From the IMG/VR virus record IMGVR_UViG_3300008267_000250, positions 52,255 through 72,254 of that record: a DNA stretch of 20,000 bases; one strand, 5' to 3'. Of the stretch, positions 4,644 to 19,440 are shown piece by piece. The position numbers and the translations under genes were made by a program. The first letter of the stretch is position 1. Each line of letters starts with the position of its first letter. The stretch comes from an uncultured virus (IMG/VR IMGVR_UViG_3300008267_000250) (lineage: Duplodnaviria; Heunggongvirae; Uroviricota; Caudoviricetes). Under the pieces are notes generated by a model, which was not told the origin of the DNA, did not search any database, and saw only the letters and a list, made by a program, of their open reading frames with translations.

Positions 4644-5639
4644 ATGAAGGACTATTATACTATTTTAGGTGTTACTGAAACAGCAACACAAGATGAAATC
4701 AAAAAAACATATAGAAAATTAAGTAAACAATATCATCCAGATGTAAACCCTGACGGAGAAGAAAAATTCAAAGAAATTACTGAAGCGTATGAGAACATAG
4801 GTGAGGAATCAAAAAGGAATGAATATGATATTAGAAGAAAAAATCCATTCCAAGGTATGGGTGGTTCACCTTTTGATATTCATAGTATGTTTGAACAAAT
4901 GATGAACGGTGGTGTACCAAAACAAAAAAGAGCACCAGACAAAGTGATAAACATAACAATTAACCCATTGGAATCATACTTTGGTACTAAAAAAGAACTG
5001 ACATTAAAAAATTTAAGTAAATGTACACCATGTCAAGGAACCGGTGGAACTAAAAAAATATGTGAAACATGTCAAGGTCAGGGAATGGTTGTTCAAGTAA
5101 TGGGTACTGGTTTATTCGCCCATAGAATCCAAACAACGTGCCCAACATGTCAAGGGTCCGGTAGTCAGATATTAAATGCTTGTACAAGTTGTTTTGGTAA
5201 TGGAAGAAGGGTTGAGGATGAAAAATTAATGGTTAACATCCCACCAAATGTGGATAATGGTGATTTTTTAAGGTTATCACAAAAAGGTGATTTTGATTCT
5301 AGTACAAAATTAAGGGGGGACTTGATTCTAAAAGTAAATTTAATAAATGATGATAAGTTTGAAAAAAGTGGATTTGATCTGATATATAATTTAAGGATTC
5401 ACCCACTCAATTTAATTTTAGACGACGAACTAATTGTTGAACACCCAGACGGTAATCTATCCATAAAAATACCAGAAAGTATAACAACTAACAAACCTTT
5501 GAGAATTGTCGGAAAGGGTTATAAAACTGATCAAGGTAGCGGAAACTTTTATATCAAAGTAATTGTTGAAAAACAAGAAAATCTTGATTCAAAATTAAAA
5601 GAGGAACTTAAACAAGTTCTAAAACTGGTTATTAATTAA
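4644..5639 (+). CDS. dnaJ: DnaJ/Hsp40 co-chaperone (class A)
   Basis: J-domain DYYTILGV...YHPD; four CxxCxGxG repeats (CTPCQGTG, CETCQGQG, CPTCQGSG, CTSCFGNG); C-terminal domain (GDLILKV, GFDL). Confidence 0.95.
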   Translation: MKDYYTILGVTETATQDEIKKTYRKLSKQYHPDVNPDGEEKFKEITEAYENIGEESKRNEYDIRRKNPFQGMGGSPFDIHSMFEQMMNGGVPKQKRAPDKVINITINPLESYFGTKKELTLKNLSKCTPCQGTGGTKKICETCQGQGMVVQVMGTGLFAHRIQTTCPTCQGSGSQILNACTSCFGNGRRVEDEKLMVNIPPNVDNGDFLRLSQKGDFDSSTKLRGDLILKVNLINDDKFEKSGFDLIYNLRIHPLNLILDDELIVEHPDGNLSIKIPESITTNKPLRIVGKGYKTDQGSGNFYIKVIVEKQENLDSKLKEELKQVLKLVIN

Positions 5640-14274: not shown

Positions 14275-15997
14275 GGATATTAATAATATTGCTAAAAGAT
14301 ACAAAAAAGCAAAAATATATTTCCACCAGGATTTAGATGGTGTTACCACGGCTTTAGCCATGAAAAACTACCTTGAACAACACGGAATAAAAGTTGTTGA
14401 TTGTGAGGTCATACAATATGGCGATAAGGAATTTGCTATAAAAAAACCAGACGCTTCTGGTGAAGTTATGCCAGTTTTAGTTGACTATAGTCACGGGCGT
14501 CCGATGTTTGTTATACACACGGATCATCATGACTCACAATCAGGAGTTGAAAAAGAAACGGCAACAAGTTTTAGACATTCAAGATCAAACGTTGAAACAA
14601 TATCCCAGGTCGTATCACCAAAAGAAATATTCCCATCCGATGACATCCTTTTAATTTCAACGGTGGATTCGGCAAATTTTGCGTCAAATGAAATAACACC
14701 TGAAATGGTAATGAATTACCTTTTTAAATTTGACAAAGATTCATCCTTAAAACAAAACAAAATGTTGATGGGCTTGGTGACAAATAAATTATTGTTAGCA
14801 TTCAAGAACAAGCCAAAGTTTTTGGAAACAATAGTAATGGAAGCAAAACCATCACTTATCAGCATATTAAATAATATCAAAAAACAAATTTTAGAGAAGG
14901 GTTATGTTAAACCGGAGATTCTAAAACAAAACCAAGAAACGTATGTTCAACAAATGAAATCACACCCAAATGTAAAAGTTGAGGATGGTATCATTATTCA
15001 ATATGGTGGTGGTAATATGATGAAACCCGGTTCTTATGATAGGTATACACCATTCAGAAACAACCCAGAAGCCGACTTTATTGTGATAGCTTGGCCACTA
15101 GGTTTGGTTCAAGCATCTTGTAATCCATTTAAAAAAGAAAGAGCGTTGAAAGGAATTAATTTGGGTGAAATAGCACAAGAAGTTCTATCAAAGTGGGAAT
15201 CACAATTAAAAGAAAAATATGTTTCGTTATCAACATTAAAATGGATTTCAGAATCTGGAAAAGATTTTGGTCCAGAATCGGTTGGTTTTACTTTTAAAGA
15301 TTTTATGGCTCTTTATGGTGATTATTATAAGTCAGTTGATAGGGGTGATGAGGTGTTGGACTTAATTGAAAAGGCGATGTTAAAACCATTCACAAGTTTA
15401 ACTGAAGAAGAAATGAAACTACTGGATGATGTTGAAATTAATGTGTGGGATTTGATCCAGGCTAACAGTGGGGGTCATAAATCGATTACTAATATTTCCG
15501 GGCTAAATTACATCGGAAGATCAAAAAGACCACCAAAAGGAGGTTATAAATACGACGCAGAAAGTGAAGATGCGCCATATGTTAAGTTTACTAAAATGAT
15601 TCAAAAAGAATTTGTGAGGGTTCTAAAAGAAAAAATGAAACAAACCGAAAATATTACAGAATCGGTTGAAAAAAAAAACTTAATTTCTCTTTTAAAAAAC
15701 CACATCAATAAAAAACACCTATTATCTGAAAAAGATTGGGATTTTATAATTAATGAGTTGGATTGTGTTATTGATAATAGAGGACAATGGGATCATCCCG
15801 GCAAATGTACACTTATTAATAGTAACACCATCACAATGAAGGATGTACTATATTCGTTAGTGGGAATTGATAATACTGGACATATGAAACTTATGTTACC
15901 AGAAAAAAACTATAATTTTCCAGGAAAAAAGGTACTTGAAATACCTTTAAAAGGGAAATTTAAGGATTTGGCATTAGAATTATTGAAAAAAGATTAA
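14243..15997 (+). CDS. DHH/DHHA1-family phosphoesterase with extra C-terminal domain
   Basis: YFHQDLDG, VLVD, HTDHH and SGGH motifs; likely start MKKLIKES at 14243 (ORF open from 14228). Confidence 0.85.
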   Translation: MKKLIKESGIRDINNIAKRYKKAKIYFHQDLDGVTTALAMKNYLEQHGIKVVDCEVIQYGDKEFAIKKPDASGEVMPVLVDYSHGRPMFVIHTDHHDSQSGVEKETATSFRHSRSNVETISQVVSPKEIFPSDDILLISTVDSANFASNEITPEMVMNYLFKFDKDSSLKQNKMLMGLVTNKLLLAFKNKPKFLETIVMEAKPSLISILNNIKKQILEKGYVKPEILKQNQETYVQQMKSHPNVKVEDGIIIQYGGGNMMKPGSYDRYTPFRNNPEADFIVIAWPLGLVQASCNPFKKERALKGINLGEIAQEVLSKWESQLKEKYVSLSTLKWISESGKDFGPESVGFTFKDFMALYGDYYKSVDRGDEVLDLIEKAMLKPFTSLTEEEMKLLDDVEINVWDLIQANSGGHKSITNISGLNYIGRSKRPPKGGYKYDAESEDAPYVKFTKMIQKEFVRVLKEKMKQTENITESVEKKNLISLLKNHINKKHLLSEKDWDFIINELDCVIDNRGQWDHPGKCTLINSNTITMKDVLYSLVGIDNTGHMKLMLPEKNYNFPGKKVLEIPLKGKFKDLALELLKKD

Positions 15998-16072
15998 ATT
16001 TTCTGAACTTTTGTTCAACATTGATATATTTATAATTATTCCTGACAAATTTCATATTTTTTTTAAAAAACA

Positions 16073-16104
16073 TTTGACAGTTCAAAATAAATGTTTTAGA
16101 TTTG
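16073..16104 (+). promoter_or_regulatory. Bacteroidota-type -33/-7 promoter
   Basis: TTTG, 20 nt spacer, TAGATTTG. Confidence 0.75.
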
Positions 16105-16154
16105 TAAAACAATTGGGGAACGACCCAATGATAAAATTGAAATACGAATAAAAC

Positions 16155-16298
16155 ATGAGTGAAGAACAACACATTGAAAGTGAAATCTACTCATACATCA
16201 CCGACAAAGGTCAGAGGGTGTATACACCAAATGTTCAGTTTGCCGAAATTATGGCAAACAAATATGGAACTCAAAAGGTATATGTAGAAAAAAATTAA
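16155..16298 (+). CDS. Small hypothetical protein (47 aa, absent from ORF track)
   Basis: MSEEQHIESEIYSYITDKGQRVYTPNVQFAEIMANKYGTQKVYVEKN, downstream of the promoter at 16073-16104. Confidence 0.65.
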   Translation: MSEEQHIESEIYSYITDKGQRVYTPNVQFAEIMANKYGTQKVYVEKN

Positions 16299-16315
16299 AA
16301 AAAGTTGACAAAGTA

Positions 16316-16347
16316 CTTGTCTAAATGAAAAAAAAGACTTAACTTTG
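16316..16347 (+). promoter_or_regulatory. Bacteroidota-type -33/-7 promoter driving the large ncRNA
   Basis: cTTG (16316-16319), 20 nt spacer, TAACTTTG (16340-16347). Confidence 0.7.
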
Positions 16348-16354
16348 TAAAACA

Positions 16355-17275
16355 AATCGGAAAAGTCCGAAACGTTCTTTGAAAATAGGAAATTAGACCG
16401 AAAGGTTAACATAATTAAAAAAAGTGAATTAACACCTCCCTTTCTTTAAGTATGGAATTTAATAGGTCATTGGGCCGTGTATGGTCCATTAAAATAAACC
16501 ATGAAAGTGGGATAAAGTGAATCAGAAGTGTAACTGATTTGCGGCTTGGGAGACCGAGCTTGAGTACACAAGCGGGATACCGTTTAACCTTTAGTACCGA
16601 GGGCAACGCTGTAGGGAAAGTGGTTAGATGATTTGGCGATGTGGGTCGTCTGATTGAGGTGGGAACACCAATAGGAATAACCCGTAGGAATAGTGCAAAA
16701 CTTAAAGTTATCCAACTTTAATATTGCGTGTTCCAGTATTATAGGATACTTAAAACCGAAAGGTATGTTTGTGTACAGGTGGTGCTGTTACAAACCCTAA
16801 TGATTCCTTACCAAAGGAATTGTTTTGAAGTAGTCTAGAAATATGGAAACTGGGAAGTTTCAGAGAGTAGTTAAGTATTGATTCGTTCAAAAGATGGGTC
16901 AGCTTGGTTGACGGACCACTACTTTCACAATCCACGACACACAACATTTTTTACAATTGGATGTAAAATCATAAACGTAATAATGGAAAAGTGTCCGTCA
17001 GGTTTGGATGAAAGGTGATTACATAGTAATGAGTTGTTCATTGCACACAAGGATCCCAAGTCTGAGTGTATTTATCCAAAAAACCTTTAATCCCGCAAGG
17101 ATGAACTGGGGCGGCAGTCTCGGAAAGAGTTAAGTAAGATGAGAGTAATTCAAACCTCAAGGAGTGGTATACCTAAAAAACCATCACTGAGAAATACCAT
17201 TCAAAAGATGGTGGATACGAAGGGAAACAATAATCCTTCAAAAGGTTCTCACAAACAGCTGTAATCTCAGGCTTA
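16355..17275 (+). ncRNA. Giant structured non-coding RNA, GOLLD-like (boundaries approximate)
   Basis: About 920 nt with no + strand ORF in the track, visibly richer in G/C than its flanks, many hairpins with GNRA loops and G-U pairs that work on the + strand, own promoter and terminator, tRNA nearby. The GOLLD assignment is inferred from size and context. Confidence 0.7.
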
Positions 17276-17307
17276 TTTTTAAAAAAAAATTACTGGTAAA
17301 AAAATTG

Positions 17308-17339
17308 ATGGATGAGATGGATTTCTTATCCATTTTTTT
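17308..17339 (+). terminator. Intrinsic terminator closing the large ncRNA
   Basis: ATGGATGAGA-tggatt-TCTTATCCAT hairpin followed by a T-tract. Confidence 0.75.
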
Positions 17340-17365
17340 ATTTCAAAAAAAAAATAAAAAAAACA

Positions 17366-17397
17366 TTTGTCAGATTCAAAAATTATTCCTACATTTG
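17366..17397 (+). promoter_or_regulatory. Bacteroidota-type -33/-7 promoter
   Basis: TTTG, 20 nt spacer, TACATTTG; 14 nt before ATG 17412. Confidence 0.75.
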
Positions 17398-17411
17398 TAG
17401 AAATAAAAGAT

Positions 17412-17675
17412 ATGACACACAAACACGTTACAATTATTCATCCAAAGTACGGTGAAGTTTTAAATGAAACTTTTATGGATGAGGTTCAGTTTAAAATATT
17501 TTTGAATATGGTCCATTCTTCAATTGCGATGGATCAAAACCTTTCAACCTTTAATGGTAAGGACTTTTTGGTACACATTCCTTGTTCAATATTAAAAGAG
17601 TCTCTGGTAATTGGTAAAACAACTGAAGTTTCAATGGCTGATGTTGTTTTGACGAAATCTAAGTTGGAGGGGTAG
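17412..17675 (+). CDS. Hypothetical protein
   Basis: ATG 17412 (MTHKHVTIIHPKYG...) preferred because the promoter at 17366-17397 lies within the longer TTG-started ORF. Confidence 0.7.
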   Translation: MTHKHVTIIHPKYGEVLNETFMDEVQFKIFLNMVHSSIAMDQNLSTFNGKDFLVHIPCSILKESLVIGKTTEVSMADVVLTKSKLEG

Positions 17676-17739
17676 TTTCTTTGTTTCTCTTTAAAACAAA
17701 GTGGTGGCTGTTGCGACATTCAATGTCGTCCCTAAAATT

Positions 17740-17766
17740 AAGGTGAGGTAATACTCACCTTTTTTT
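17740..17766 (+). terminator. Intrinsic terminator
   Basis: AAGGTGAG-gtaata-CTCACCTT followed by a T-tract. Confidence 0.85.
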
Positions 17767-17777
17767 GTTTCTGGATA

Positions 17778-17784
17778 TATTTAT
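17778..17784 (+). promoter_or_regulatory. TATTTAT element (candidate phage late promoter), representative copy
   Basis: Recurs just upstream of starts at 1221, 5867, 10980, 13475, 17778 and on the minus strand within 10936-10943. Confidence 0.55.
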
Positions 17785-17790
17785 TGGTAT

Positions 17791-18345
17791 ATGAAAAAGA
17801 TTATATCTGAAAATATGAACTACCATTTGGATAATGGTATAACATTAACTGAAAACATATTCAGACCATTTTCCGATGAGTTTTTTAATTTAATCAATGA
17901 GGCCAGAGAATTATATAACGAAGGTTATATTGATGTGGATGAGGATGAAAAATGGTTGGTTGAAAGTGATTTTGGAAAAAAAGTAAAACTTACAAGTGGG
18001 AAAATTGTTAGACTTGAAGTTCCATATATTGAAAATTCAATTAATGAAGCTGAATATAAGGGTAGAAAAGTTGAACTTGGGAAACCGATGAGAAATACAG
18101 GTGGTGGAAAAAAATATGTGGTGTATGTTAAAAATCCATCTACCGGTAAAGTTAAAAAAATTAGTTTTGGTGATAAAAAGGGGGGTTTAACCGCTAAAGT
18201 ATCAAATCCGGAAGCTAGAAGGAATTTTGCTTCCAGACACAATTGTAAAGCCAAAAAAGATAGGTTAACGGCCGGTTACTGGGCCTGTAGAATCAATCGC
18301 TATGCTCATTTATGGGGAGGAAAAAGTTATGGAGGGTACTGGTGA
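17791..18345 (+). CDS. Phage virion-associated protein, DUF6321-like C-terminal domain
   Basis: EAEYKGRKVELGKP...VYVKNP...KKISFG...RRNFASRHNC...AGYWACR; N-terminal KKIISE; TATTTAT upstream. Family name recalled from memory. Confidence 0.6.
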   Translation: MKKIISENMNYHLDNGITLTENIFRPFSDEFFNLINEARELYNEGYIDVDEDEKWLVESDFGKKVKLTSGKIVRLEVPYIENSINEAEYKGRKVELGKPMRNTGGGKKYVVYVKNPSTGKVKKISFGDKKGGLTAKVSNPEARRNFASRHNCKAKKDRLTAGYWACRINRYAHLWGGKSYGGYW

Positions 18346-18607
18346 TTTACCATTTAAACAAAAAGATTTTGGAAACACCAAAATAAGAACGTTTGATTCG
18401 TCGGTGGATGAATATGAATTAAAATGGCATAGAGATAGAGAGGACCGGAAAGTTATTATCATTGAATCAAACGGTTGGAAATTCCAATCGGATAATTCAT
18501 TACCAACGACATTAAAAGAAGGCGATCAGATATTTATACCAAAAGATACCTTTCATAGAGTTATCAAGGGGAATGGAAATTTAAAAATTAAAGTTGAGTT
18601 TTTATGA
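18329..18607 (+). CDS. Cupin-fold protein
   Basis: WHRD...E and LKEGDQIFIPKDTFHRV cupin motifs (ORF open from 18302). Confidence 0.8.
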   Translation: MEGTGDLPFKQKDFGNTKIRTFDSSVDEYELKWHRDREDRKVIIIESNGWKFQSDNSLPTTLKEGDQIFIPKDTFHRVIKGNGNLKIKVEFL

Positions 18608-18903
18608 AAAAAATTATTATAACAGAAAAACAATTGGAAGATATGGTTAAACACATCAAAGAAAATCATGATGATGGTTCATATATGGCAAAACAACAAT
18701 TATTTACAATCGCAACATTGGCTTACAAAATGTGGGAAATGATGGAGGATGGTGAACAACTTGAGGATTGGATGGAAACCAAAATCGCTCAATCCGAACA
18801 ATCAATCCTTGCCGTTGTAAAATCCTTTATGTATGATGAAGCTGAAGATAGGATGAAAAAAAATGGTGATATCGGATTGGATGGATTAATCATTGGAATG
18901 TAA
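18604..18903 (+). CDS. Hypothetical protein, probable head protein
   Basis: MKKIIITEKQL...HIKE leader; SYMAKQQL...LEDWMETKI. Confidence 0.65.
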   Translation: MKKIIITEKQLEDMVKHIKENHDDGSYMAKQQLFTIATLAYKMWEMMEDGEQLEDWMETKIAQSEQSILAVVKSFMYDEAEDRMKKNGDIGLDGLIIGM

Positions 18904-18923
18904 TTTAAAATTAATATAATTTG

Positions 18924-18951
18924 TCCTCCGGTTATTGACTGGGGGATTTTT
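18924..18951 (+). terminator. Intrinsic terminator
   Basis: TCCTCCGGT-tattg-ACTGGGGGA followed by TTTTT. Confidence 0.75.
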
Positions 18952-18964
18952 ATTTTGTATCTTT

Positions 18965-19156
18965 ATGAAAAAAAGGATGTACGTTATAGTTAAACATATT
19001 AAAACGGAAAATAGAAAAAGAGTTCCAGTTATCATTTTGAATGGTCACAATGAAATTTGGGAATTTGACACTTTTGAACAGGCCGATGATATGAAAAAGA
19101 TTTTTGAATTGAATTCAGATTCCGGTCACAAATATGAGGTTAAAAAACTTCATTAA
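18965..19156 (+). CDS. Hypothetical protein
   Basis: ATG 18965 (MKKRMYVIVKH...); the longer start overlaps the terminator. Confidence 0.65.
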   Translation: MKKRMYVIVKHIKTENRKRVPVIILNGHNEIWEFDTFEQADDMKKIFELNSDSGHKYEVKKLH

Positions 19157-19161
19157 AATAT

Positions 19162-19440
19162 GGTCCCGTAGCTCAACTGAATAGAGCAATTGCCTCAAAT
19201 AGGGGGCGTTTAATTGGAAACAGTTAAATGGAACTCATCAAATTCGGGGAAGCCTGTAAAATGGTAATCCCGAGCCAAGATCTCAGAAATGGGATAAGGT
19301 GTAGAGACTTGACGGTGAGTACCTAAGTCCAAATGGATAAGGTAATGAGAAAGTCCAGACCACAAACAATTAAATTGGTAGTGAAAACTATAGTGGTACG
19401 TCTAAGCAATAGGTTGATGGTTTGAATCCATCCGGGATCA
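19162..19440 (+). tRNA. tRNA-Arg(UCU), intron-containing (exons 19162-19195 and 19401-19440)
   Basis: Joined exons fold as a cloverleaf: acceptor GGTCCCG/CGGGATC+A, D-stem GCTC/GAGC, anticodon ATTGC-CT-TCT-AA-GCAAT, T-arm GATGG-TTTGAAT-CCATC; A20 Arg identity base; CCA not encoded. Confidence 0.92.
19196..19400 (+). mobile_element. Group I self-splicing intron (205 nt, ORF-less, IC3-like)
   Basis: 5' exon ends in U paired to G in P1 (GCCU|C with GGGGC); P2 with GAAA loop; P3 ACTCATC/GGTGAGT; P4 TTCGGG/CCCGAG; P7 GACTT/AAGTC; P8 TACCT/AGGTA; P9 region ACCAC/GTGGT; terminal omega-G at 19400. Confidence 0.92.

What the first reader, a model, noticed from the sequence alone, without database searches (positions are those of the whole stretch)
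16355..17339. ~0.95 kb stand-alone, ornate non-coding RNA (GOLLD-like or new giant RNA)
Seen: in an otherwise wall-to-wall coding region, about 950 nt carry no credible ORF yet sit between a host-type promoter (TAACTTTG 16340) and a terminator (17308-17339). The stretch is packed with stems: TCGGA-aaag-TCCGA (16357-70), TGGGCCGT/ATGGTCCA (16471-88), GCTTGG-GAGA-CCGAGC (16544-59), TTAGATGATTT/GGGTCGTCTGA (16624-53), GGTG-GGAA-CACC (16658-69), ACC-GAAA-GGT (16755-64), ATTCCTT/AAGGAAT (16803-20), GAAACT-GGGA-AGTTTC (16846-61), and TTTGGATGAA/TTTATCCAAA (17003-80) enclosing GTAATGAG/TTCATTGC. G-U pairs and GNRA loops give + strand polarity. Known: GOLLD RNAs are about 800 nt, occur in lake metagenomes and phages near tRNAs, and have no established function. 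Inference: this is a GOLLD-class or related giant RNA of a Bacteroidota phage.
Basis: partly seen in the sequence, partly recalled or inferred. Interest (0 to 1): 0.85.

Follow-up and report, generated by a model that had tools for sequence, protein, structure and literature searches.

The report
Ordinary GOLLD cage RNA, rRNA-style leader
The gene-free kilobase encodes a full-length copy of GOLLD, a known giant phage RNA that assembles into hollow RNA-only cages, here made as its own transcription unit behind a leader signal otherwise typical of ribosomal RNA operons.

Summary
Window 16863-17273 (+) matches Rfam GOLLD (RF02032) end to end at 322 bits (cut-off 150). The 393 nt upstream (16470-16862) are the GOLLD 5' domain. 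It aligns with more than 70 phage contigs, and 97 of 117 tested base pairs show compensatory changes. The ~804-nt core is collinear with env-38 GOLLD, whose cryo-EM structure is a 14-mer nanocage. Every inter-subunit contact motif I could map is kept.

The gene stands alone. It has a Bacteroidota-type promoter (TAACTTTG, 16340), a 5' hairpin, a ~115-nt leader and an intrinsic terminator (17307-17334). No tRNA lies anywhere in the 72-kb phage contig.

One point is less ordinary. The leader holds GTTCTTTGAA (16374-16383), present in 69 of 72 homologue rows. The same word lies in 16S rRNA operon leaders (33 of 109 sampled), where such a sequence is called boxA and binds NusB/NusE. GOLLD is therefore probably transcribed like rRNA, which would protect it from Rho termination and help it fold. 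No paper in the library searched links GOLLD and boxA, but earlier notes of this scan saw the same on other DNA.

Verdict: a new member of a known family, of low to moderate interest.

The parts
16316..16347 (+). Bacteroidota-type promoter: CTTG (16316-19), 20-nt spacer, TAACTTTG (16340-47). The transcription start is inferred near 16352-16354.
   Evidence: Read from the sequence. TAnnTTTG is enriched 20-40 nt before start codons, 6 observed against 0.81 expected. The same word lies 23-50 nt before the box in 39 of 72 homologue rows. The consensus itself is recalled, and the start site is not mapped.
16357..16370 (+). 5'-proximal hairpin TCGGA-AAAG-TCCGA, in the position of boxB
   Evidence: A hairpin of 4 bp or more lies between promoter and box in 30 of 39 promoter-led homologues, with different stems: UCGGA/UCCGA, UCAGGA/UCCUGA, UCUCA/UGAGA, AUCAC/GUGGU. 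It is not general. Under a stricter test 25 of 39 promoter-led and 6 of 30 other leaders have it, against 107 of 345 background segments.
16374..16385 (+). boxA-like element GTTCTTTGAAAA, a candidate NusB/NusE binding site
   Evidence: GTTCTTT[GA]A is present in 69 of 72 homologue rows at -15 to -117 from the core. It is the only GTTCTTTGA in the 72-kb contig. G[CT]TCTTT[AG]A lies upstream of 16S in 33 of 109 rrn loci. In Bacteroidota it is found in 5 of 10 loci exactly, and 3 more have GATCTTTGAA. The published gamma-proteobacterial boxA consensus is GYTCTTTAANA (PMC5725501, passages).
16386..16469 (+). Variable leader expansion between the box and the core
   Evidence: The box-to-core distance ranges from 15 to 117 nt among homologues. 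This version is shared only with L187 and L194, including AACACCTCCCTTTCTTTAAG at 16431-16450.
16470..16862 (+). GOLLD 5' ('cap') domain, env-38 type
   Evidence: It aligns with two huge-phage records and IMG/VR contigs. RNAalifold gives 110 pairs, 92 with compensatory change. In the pair count, 96.1% of cells are paired against 37-44% when partners are slid. The env-38 construct starts at the same position (Suppl. Table 4 of PMC12286853).
16863..17273 (+). Rfam GOLLD match: hairpin with CAAAAG loop (16863-16924), A/U-rich variable linker (about 16925-16995), and 3' ('ring') domain with pseudoknot
   Evidence: RF02032 positions 1-416, 322 bits, gathering score 150.
17307..17343 (+). Intrinsic terminator: 11-bp hairpin followed by a T-run
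   Evidence: Found by the consensus scan. A terminator-like site lies within 110 nt of the core end in 43 of 72 homologue rows.

Best explanation
Window ~16353-17340 (+) is one transcription unit for a GOLLD RNA of the env-38 architectural type, carried by a large freshwater phage.

Shown:
- It belongs to the family.
- A conserved two-domain fold is supported by covariation.
- The contact motifs used between subunits in the solved cage are conserved.
- Pieces of it occur in RNA libraries.

Inferred:
1. Host RNA polymerase starts at the TAnnTTTG promoter.
2. The nascent 5' hairpin and boxA (GUUCUUUGAA) recruit NusB/NusE and the other Nus factors, as in rRNA operons. The long untranslated transcript then escapes Rho-dependent termination and folds co-transcriptionally.
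3. Transcription ends at the intrinsic terminator.
4. The ~804-nt core assembles without protein into a D7 homo-14-mer nanocage like env-38. The 5' domains form the caps, the 3' domains form the rings, and the variable linker points inward.
5. The biological job of the cage is unknown. My best guess, about 20%, is sequestration or scaffolding of translation components late in infection.

My odds: GOLLD member 0.97; single RNA with both domains 0.95; cage-forming 0.75; the box acting as a Nus-dependent boxA 0.55.
For: Family and fold:
- Full-length Rfam hit, 322 bits against a 150-bit cut-off.
- 5' domain: 117 pairs tested on 71 sequences. 96.1% of cells are paired against 37-44% slid; 97 pairs have double changes against 36-46 slid; the covariation score is 0.583 against about 0.1; 0 of 500 shuffles reach it.

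Contact motifs of env-38, taken from its Supplementary Table 2 and mapped by me, in 72 rows:
- B1 GAAA in 72 of 72; B3 GGAA in 71 of 72.
- B7 pairs 16985-17057 and 16986-17056 are paired in 72 of 72, with CG 37, GC 31 and AU 4. The window has the GC variant.
- B8 is GC or CG; B9 is GGCA in the window.
- The L14 and L26 CAAAA loops are kept. The B5 loops GGUGGUG and ACCAA are kept.
- The three core pairs of B4 hold in 71, 71 and 65 of 71.
- The elements that the 12-mer S. agalactiae GOLLD lacks (P9, P11a-c, P21b; review PMC12990946, passages) are all present here. The P numbering is my inference.

Box as boxA. The order boxB-boxA just after the promoter, and again before 23S, is stated in PMC10250234 (passages).

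Expression: contigs of 4 freshwater RNA libraries from 3 studies lie on pieces of 16413-17368. Six listed pieces are identical to the window.

Transcription unit: own promoter and own terminator go with absence of flanking tRNAs. Of 39 rows with a promoter, 33 have no tRNA within 500 nt upstream; 28 of the 33 rows without one have such a tRNA. Of 43 rows with a terminator, 41 have no tRNA within 300 nt downstream.
Against: - No transcript ends are known, and contigs cannot show them.
- Cage formation and stoichiometry are untested for this sequence.
- Its P11a stem is about 22 nt shorter than in env-38 (compared with the printed sequence).
- Its B4 kissing loop has 3 Watson-Crick pairs where env-38 has 5.
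- The box is invariant, so covariation cannot say what it contacts.
- Nus-factor action on boxA is established in E. coli, not in Bacteroidota.
- 2 of the 10 Bacteroidota rrn leaders sampled show no such word, and 3 have GATCTTTGAA.
- The hairpin before the box is not above background in leaders without the promoter word (6 of 30 against 107 of 345).
- The host is not identified.
- tRNA adjacency, often quoted for GOLLD, is absent here.
Confidence: 0.85

Rival explanations
1. The GTTCTTTGAA box is not a Nus/boxA site. It is another kind of RNA signal: a maturation cleavage site, or a single-stranded docking site kept on the mature RNA, 14 copies per cage, for a cargo or host factor.
For: The box sits at the 5' end of the RNA whether that end is made by a promoter or follows a tRNA. 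It starts 6 nt after the tRNA in L130 and L137. It is invariant, as a protein or RNA contact would be. It lies outside the Rfam model and outside the env-38 cryo-EM construct.
Against: The same 9-10-mer is enriched in rrn leaders of many phyla, 33 of 109 where I estimate about 1 by chance, at -47 to -321 from 16S for 32 of the 33. That is the simplest reading. I found no consistent RNA partner in the core or in the 3' tail.
Confidence: 0.25
2. Two separate RNAs lie here: an independent ~400-500-nt 5' RNA followed by a half-size GOLLD (the Rfam match only).
For: The Rfam model covers only 16863-17273. [quoted passage not shown] A TAnnTTTG word lies at 16764.
Against: Both halves are collinear in all 83 full-length homologue loci and form one chain in env-38. 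No terminator-like site lies between them. The word at 16764 lies within the conserved P11a-P11b region.
Confidence: 0.03
3. A decayed, non-functional GOLLD relic.
For: No tRNA neighbours. The function of the family is unknown.
Against: The match is full length with 4 non-standard pairs marked. All mapped contact motifs are intact. The promoter, box and terminator are intact. Identical pieces occur in RNA libraries.
Confidence: 0.03
4. Protein-coding or pseudogene DNA, or a giant RNA unrelated to GOLLD.
For: None beyond the absence of annotation.
Against: ORFs are at most 73 aa with no Pfam match at E<=0.01. Substitutions are compensatory in stems. The Rfam hit has E 6e-92.
Confidence: 0.01

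Closest known systems
GOLLD RNA env-38 (Rfam RF02032; 833 nt; cryo-EM D7 14-mer; Kretsch et al. 2025, PMC12286853; PDB 9MEE as listed in PMC12990946)
   Same: The layout is collinear from the first core hairpin to the last 3' hairpin. It has the same 5' domain type, the same loops used for inter-subunit bridges B1-B10 where mapped, a variable linker, and a phage origin.
   Different: P11a is about 22 nt shorter. The B4 kiss has 3 rather than 5 Watson-Crick pairs. This copy has a ~115-nt leader with hairpin and boxA, which the construct and the Rfam model do not include. It has its own promoter and terminator instead of lying behind tRNA-Met, and there is no tRNA in the 72-kb contig.
Streptococcus agalactiae GOLLD (700 nt, 12-mer; PDB 9L0R as listed in PMC12990946)
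   Same: The same family and the same conserved 3' domain.
   Different: According to the review, that RNA lacks P9, P11a-c and P21b and forms a 12-mer. The window has counterparts of all of these (my mapping), so a 14-mer is the better guess.
Leader of bacterial rRNA operons (boxB-boxA-boxC; rrn antitermination complex with NusA/B/E/G, SuhB, S4)
   Same: The same boxA word, close to the 5' end and preceded here by a hairpin. A second mode behind tRNAs resembles the boxA before 23S. The product is a long, highly structured, untranslated RNA.
   Different: I found no leader-trailer helix: cognate leader-tail duplexes average -6.5 kcal/mol against -6.0 for non-cognate ones. No boxC was identified. 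Binding of Nus factors is untested.
ROOL RNA (phage and prophage RNA nanocage, 8-mer)
   Same: It works alike: a phage-borne RNA-only cage, often near tRNAs, of unknown function (PMC12286853).
   Different: Sequence and fold differ, and there is no Rfam match at E<=1 in 16000-17500. This RNA is not a member.

Membership tests
GOLLD RNA (RF02032) | Covariance-model score at or above Rfam's gathering score over the conserved 3' half | tested here: met
   322 bits against 150, model positions 1-416 of 416, E 6e-92.
GOLLD RNA (RF02032) | A large structured 5' domain joined to the 3' domain through a variable linker, about 800 nt in all | tested here: met
   The core 16470-17273 is 804 nt. The 5' domain is supported by covariation. 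The A/U-rich linker at about 16925-16995 is poorly conserved.
GOLLD RNA (RF02032) | Encoded in a phage or prophage | tested here: met
   The source is an IMG/VR virus record. PHROG matches include baseplate wedge, virion protein, primase, exonuclease, SbcCD and sigma factor. The nearest records are two uncultured phages of 634 and 642 kb.
GOLLD RNA (RF02032) | Neighbouring tRNA genes (frequent, not obligatory) | tested here: not met
   ARAGORN finds 0 tRNAs in the window and in the whole 72,254-bp contig, and Rfam finds none. The contig is about 25% complete and ends 2.7 kb downstream. 28 of 72 homologue rows also lack a tRNA in their flanks.
GOLLD RNA, env-38 type (14-mer cage) | Loops and linkers that form the inter-subunit bridges B1-B10 | tested here: met
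   All mapped motifs are present in the window and conserved or covarying in 72 rows. B4 is kept only as a 3-bp core. The residue mapping from Supplementary Table 2 was done by hand.
GOLLD RNA, env-38 type (14-mer cage) | Protein-free assembly into a closed homo-oligomer | not testable with these tools
   This needs mass photometry or cryo-EM of the transcript.
GOLLD RNA (RF02032) | Expressed as RNA | tested here: inconclusive
   Contigs of 4 RNA libraries lie on parts of 16413-17368, some identical to the window. Contigs show neither strand, ends nor level, and many come from relatives.
rrn-type boxA antitermination site | Match to the boxA word found in rRNA operon leaders, near the 5' end of the transcript | tested here: met
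   GTTCTTTGAA starts about 20 nt after the inferred start. The same word lies in rrn leaders of Saccharicrinis, Prevotella, Bacillus, Mesorhizobium and others. The published consensus is GYTCTTTAANA.
rrn-type boxA antitermination site | Binding of NusB-NusE and Nus-dependent read-through of Rho terminators | not testable with these tools
   This needs a biochemical or genetic test.
ROOL, OLE, RNase P, tmRNA, group II intron | Rfam covariance-model match | tested here: not met
   Besides GOLLD, nothing in 16000-17500 at E<=1 except a chance snoRNA match at 16.9 bits.

The most novel reading that the evidence does not exclude
Cage-forming GOLLD RNAs of this clade are made by an rRNA-style, Nus-factor-modified RNA polymerase. 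A boxA, preceded by a hairpin in promoter-led copies, heads the RNA whether it starts at its own promoter or follows a tRNA. The antitermination complex then shields the kilobase of untranslated RNA from Rho and acts as a co-transcriptional chaperone for a fold that must go on to build a 14-mer. This leader is absent from the Rfam model and from the env-38 construct, and the S. agalactiae constructs were not checked, so the solved cages may lack a conserved functional appendage.
Probability: 0.5. Interest if true: 0.5.

Novelty: new member of a known kind. Interest (0 to 1): 0.3.

Why it matters
As a GOLLD copy it adds little.

Two points are modestly useful.
1. The family boundaries in Rfam and in the env-38 structural construct omit a conserved leader whose boxA word points to rRNA-like biogenesis. 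This gives a testable handle on how such RNAs reach high levels and fold.
2. GOLLD genes come in two interchangeable settings: embedded in tRNA arrays, or standing alone with their own promoter and terminator. Either way the box heads the RNA.

Tried and rejected
- Box partner by covariation: mutual information of box-flanking positions against all core columns gave no Watson-Crick pattern.
- Box partner by RNAduplex: the most frequent target (62 of 69) was the GGAA hairpin 16658-69. That hairpin covaries as a hairpin, and its variant CGGAAG could not pair with the box. I judged it spurious.
- Leader-trailer helix: cognate leader-tail duplexes average -6.5 kcal/mol against -6.0 for non-cognate ones, and the cognate ranks 28.7 of 69 on average. 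No support.
- First IMG/VR scan with the 14-mer CAGGTGGTGCTGTT was too unspecific: about 17 true homologue loci among 120.
- Literature searches for the box word found only primers and unrelated text.
- A search combining boxA, antitermination and GOLLD found no paper linking them. Supplements and papers outside the held library were not covered.
- RNA-library contigs: nothing was laid on 14500-16160 and almost nothing on 17369-19000 in the four runs. By the tool's own caution this is no evidence that the flanks are silent. Nor does the low depth over 16312-16412 show that the leader is removed.
14 runs of 9 studies hold 37-66% of the sampled words, labelled lake water or freshwater, with three labelled 'fungus metagenome'. 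One may be the source sample.
- I did not align env-38 with tools, because its sequence is known to me only from a paper's supplement. The mapping was by eye.

Full report
**What is there**

The window is the last 20 kb of a 72,254-bp IMG/VR virus record that CheckV rates about 25% complete. A scan of the whole window against Rfam 15 gives two matches. One is GOLLD (RF02032) at 16863-17273 on the + strand: model positions 1-416 of 416, 322 bits against a gathering score of 150, E 6e-92. The other is a group I intron at 19186-19381. A permissive scan of 16000-17500 adds only a chance snoRNA match. Between 16299 and 17412 no ORF exceeds 73 aa, and the ten small ORFs have no Pfam match at E<=0.01. 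The + strand of 16470-17273 folds with z = -5.0 and the - strand with z = -0.8.

**The upstream half belongs to the same RNA**

The Rfam model covers only the conserved 3' half of GOLLD. BLASTN against GenBank phages matched the upstream part too, in two uncultured phages of 634 and 642 kb. A three-way alignment shows conservation from window ~16470 onward.

Two pattern scans of IMG/VR, both capped at 120 loci, gave many homologues. An nhmmer profile found 83 full-length loci, which reduce to 72 rows after removing exact duplicates. The rows include the window and the two GenBank records. L010 and L004 were dropped for lack of an anchor, and one contig is counted twice as L081 and L156.

RNAalifold on 71 sequences (L081 left out) predicts 110 pairs for 16470-16934, 92 of them with compensatory changes. 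I edited this structure by adding the first hairpin, treating its loop pairing as a pseudoknot, and adding one intermolecular kiss. On the edited structure:
- 96.1% of 8275 cells are paired, against 37-44% when partners are slid by 1-3 columns.
- 97 of 117 pairs have double changes, against 36-46 slid.
- The covariation score is 0.583 against about 0.1, and no shuffle of 500 reaches any measure.

The ACCAA-loop hairpin at 16803-20, badly aligned by MAFFT, is 80.5% paired in register against 34-59% out of register.

**Relation to the solved structure**

Supplementary Table 4 of Kretsch et al. 2025 (PMC12286853; I read passages of the main text and part 2 of supplement 1) prints the 833-nt env-38 construct. 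After two added G residues it starts exactly where my conserved core starts. It shows the same 5' domain type. That RNA forms a D7 14-mer cage, with residues 1-420 as caps and 421-833 as rings.

I mapped the contact residues of their Supplementary Table 2 by hand. The window keeps the following:
- the GAAA loop of B1 (72 of 72 rows) and the GGAA loop of B3 (71 of 72);
- the GGGUAAC-type loop of B2;
- the GGUGGUG and ACCAA loops of B5;
- the CAAAAG loops of B6 and B10;
- the GC dinucleotides of the self-complementary kisses B8 and B9.

The B7 kiss covaries perfectly. 16986-17056 is CG in 37 rows, GC in 31 and AU in 4, and 16985-17057 is GC in 68 and UA in 4, so all 72 are paired. B4 is kept as a three-pair core in the window and in most rows. 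The two outer pairs of env-38 exist in only 24 and 11 of 71.

A review (PMC12990946, passages) says that the 12-mer S. agalactiae GOLLD lacks P9, P11a-c and P21b. By my numbering, inferred from residue numbers, the window has all of these, with a P11a about 22 nt shorter than in env-38. A 14-mer is therefore the better guess, untested.

**The transcription unit**

TAACTTTG at 16340 fits the Bacteroidota -7 element (consensus recalled). CTTG lies 20 nt upstream. The word TAnnTTTG lies 20-40 nt before 6 of 31 plus-strand start codons in the window, against 0.81 expected. A hairpin with a T-run at 17307-17334 ends the unit.

Among the 72 rows:
- 39 have the promoter word 23-50 nt before the leader box.
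- 43 have a terminator-like site within 110 nt.
- 27 have both.
- 44 have a tRNA somewhere in their flanks.

Own promoter and own terminator go with absence of flanking tRNAs. Of 39 promoter rows, 33 have no tRNA within 500 nt upstream, and 28 of the 33 rows without the promoter word have such a tRNA. Of 43 terminator rows, 41 have no tRNA within 300 nt downstream. The stand-alone form of the window is therefore one of two common settings, not a peculiarity. The contig itself has no tRNA and no other Rfam family.

**The leader**

Upstream of the core the sequences diverge, except for one word. GTTCTTT[GA]A occurs in 69 of 72 rows at 15-117 nt from the core, and two of the remaining three have GTTCTTAGAA. 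In promoter-led copies it starts 23-50 nt after the promoter word. In L130 and L137 it starts 6 nt after an upstream tRNA. In 30 of 39 promoter-led leaders a hairpin with varied stems precedes it, and the window's is TCGGA-AAAG-TCCGA. The hairpin is not above background in the other leaders. In the contig the word GTTCTTTGA occurs only here.

I looked for an RNA partner and found none. The word is, however, that of boxA, the NusB/NusE site of rRNA operons. The published gamma-proteobacterial consensus is GYTCTTTAANA (PMC5725501, passages). In rRNA operons the elements lie in the order boxB, boxA, boxC just after the promoter, and again before 23S, and boxA suffices to form the antitermination complex (PMC10250234, passages).

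To test this on data, I fetched 120 loci around the 16S 5' end from genome contigs. G[CT]TCTTT[AG]A lies upstream of 16S in 33 of the 109 loci with at least 250 nt upstream. It sits at -47 to -321 in 32 of them. I estimate about one match by chance. Of 10 Bacteroidota loci, 5 have GTTCTTTGA and 3 have GATCTTTGAA at -85 to -222. The Saccharicrinis leader reads like a GOLLD leader.

I therefore read the box as a boxA. The consequence, that GOLLD is transcribed by a Nus-modified polymerase that resists Rho and aids folding, is inference.

**Expression**

Four freshwater RNA libraries from three studies, laid at 90% likeness, give contigs on pieces of 16413-17368. Six of the listed pieces are identical to the window, and many others differ and come from relatives. 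This shows presence in RNA libraries, not strand, ends or level.

**Context and novelty**

The contig is a phage with baseplate wedge, virion protein, primase, exonuclease, SbcCD, sigma-factor and methyltransferase genes. A 589-aa protein is 40-46% identical to the two huge phages that also hold the closest GOLLDs.

No paper in the library searched links GOLLD with boxA or antitermination. Earlier notes of this scan report boxA-led GOLLD genes, and one ROOL gene, on other DNA. I saw these notes after reaching the same reading.

The finding is a new member of a known family.

Noticed in passing
window 19186-19381 (+): Group I intron match (RF00028, 66 bits against a 50-bit cut-off). Its core (about 19225-19398) resembles stretches in other phages, including two 735-kb records and Pelagibacter phage HTVC120P. 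The ORF 18935-19156 stops 30 nt before the match, and no clear downstream exon frame was found.
   Followed up: partly
window 16431-16450 (+): The leader word AACACCTCCCTTTCTTTAAG is shared only with the leaders of L187 and L194. It resembles the pyrimidine-rich 3' end of 16S rRNA (resemblance recalled, not tested).
   Followed up: no
72 GOLLD homologue rows (loci L002-L204): There are two settings for the same RNA, tRNA-embedded or with its own promoter and terminator, and the two are anti-correlated. In both, the boxA word heads the RNA.
   Followed up: yes
L139, L189, L203, L166, L174, L194; and L033, L192, L161, L178, L165 (leaders before the box): Other conserved leader modules lie upstream of the box in relatives that lack the close promoter, for example ...GGTGATGAAAGATACTCGG... 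and ...GGTYGTAAAGWTTCC.... They are absent from the window.
   Followed up: no
L035:576-925: A tmRNA gene lies about 260 nt upstream of that contig's GOLLD, and a tRNA-Met lies directly after it.
   Followed up: no
contig G000:C1:46810-47625 (L247:7810-8625); window 4644-5639: The phage encodes a sigma-70-family factor (phrog_351, E 2e-53) beside two tandem DNA methyltransferases. It also encodes a full DnaJ (J domain, CXXCXGXG, C-terminal domain).
   Followed up: no
L004 (Acinetobacter phage Ab15, PP763259.1 about 25999-26697): A GOLLD (219 bits) inside a 12-tRNA array is annotated there only as small hypothetical proteins.
   Followed up: partly
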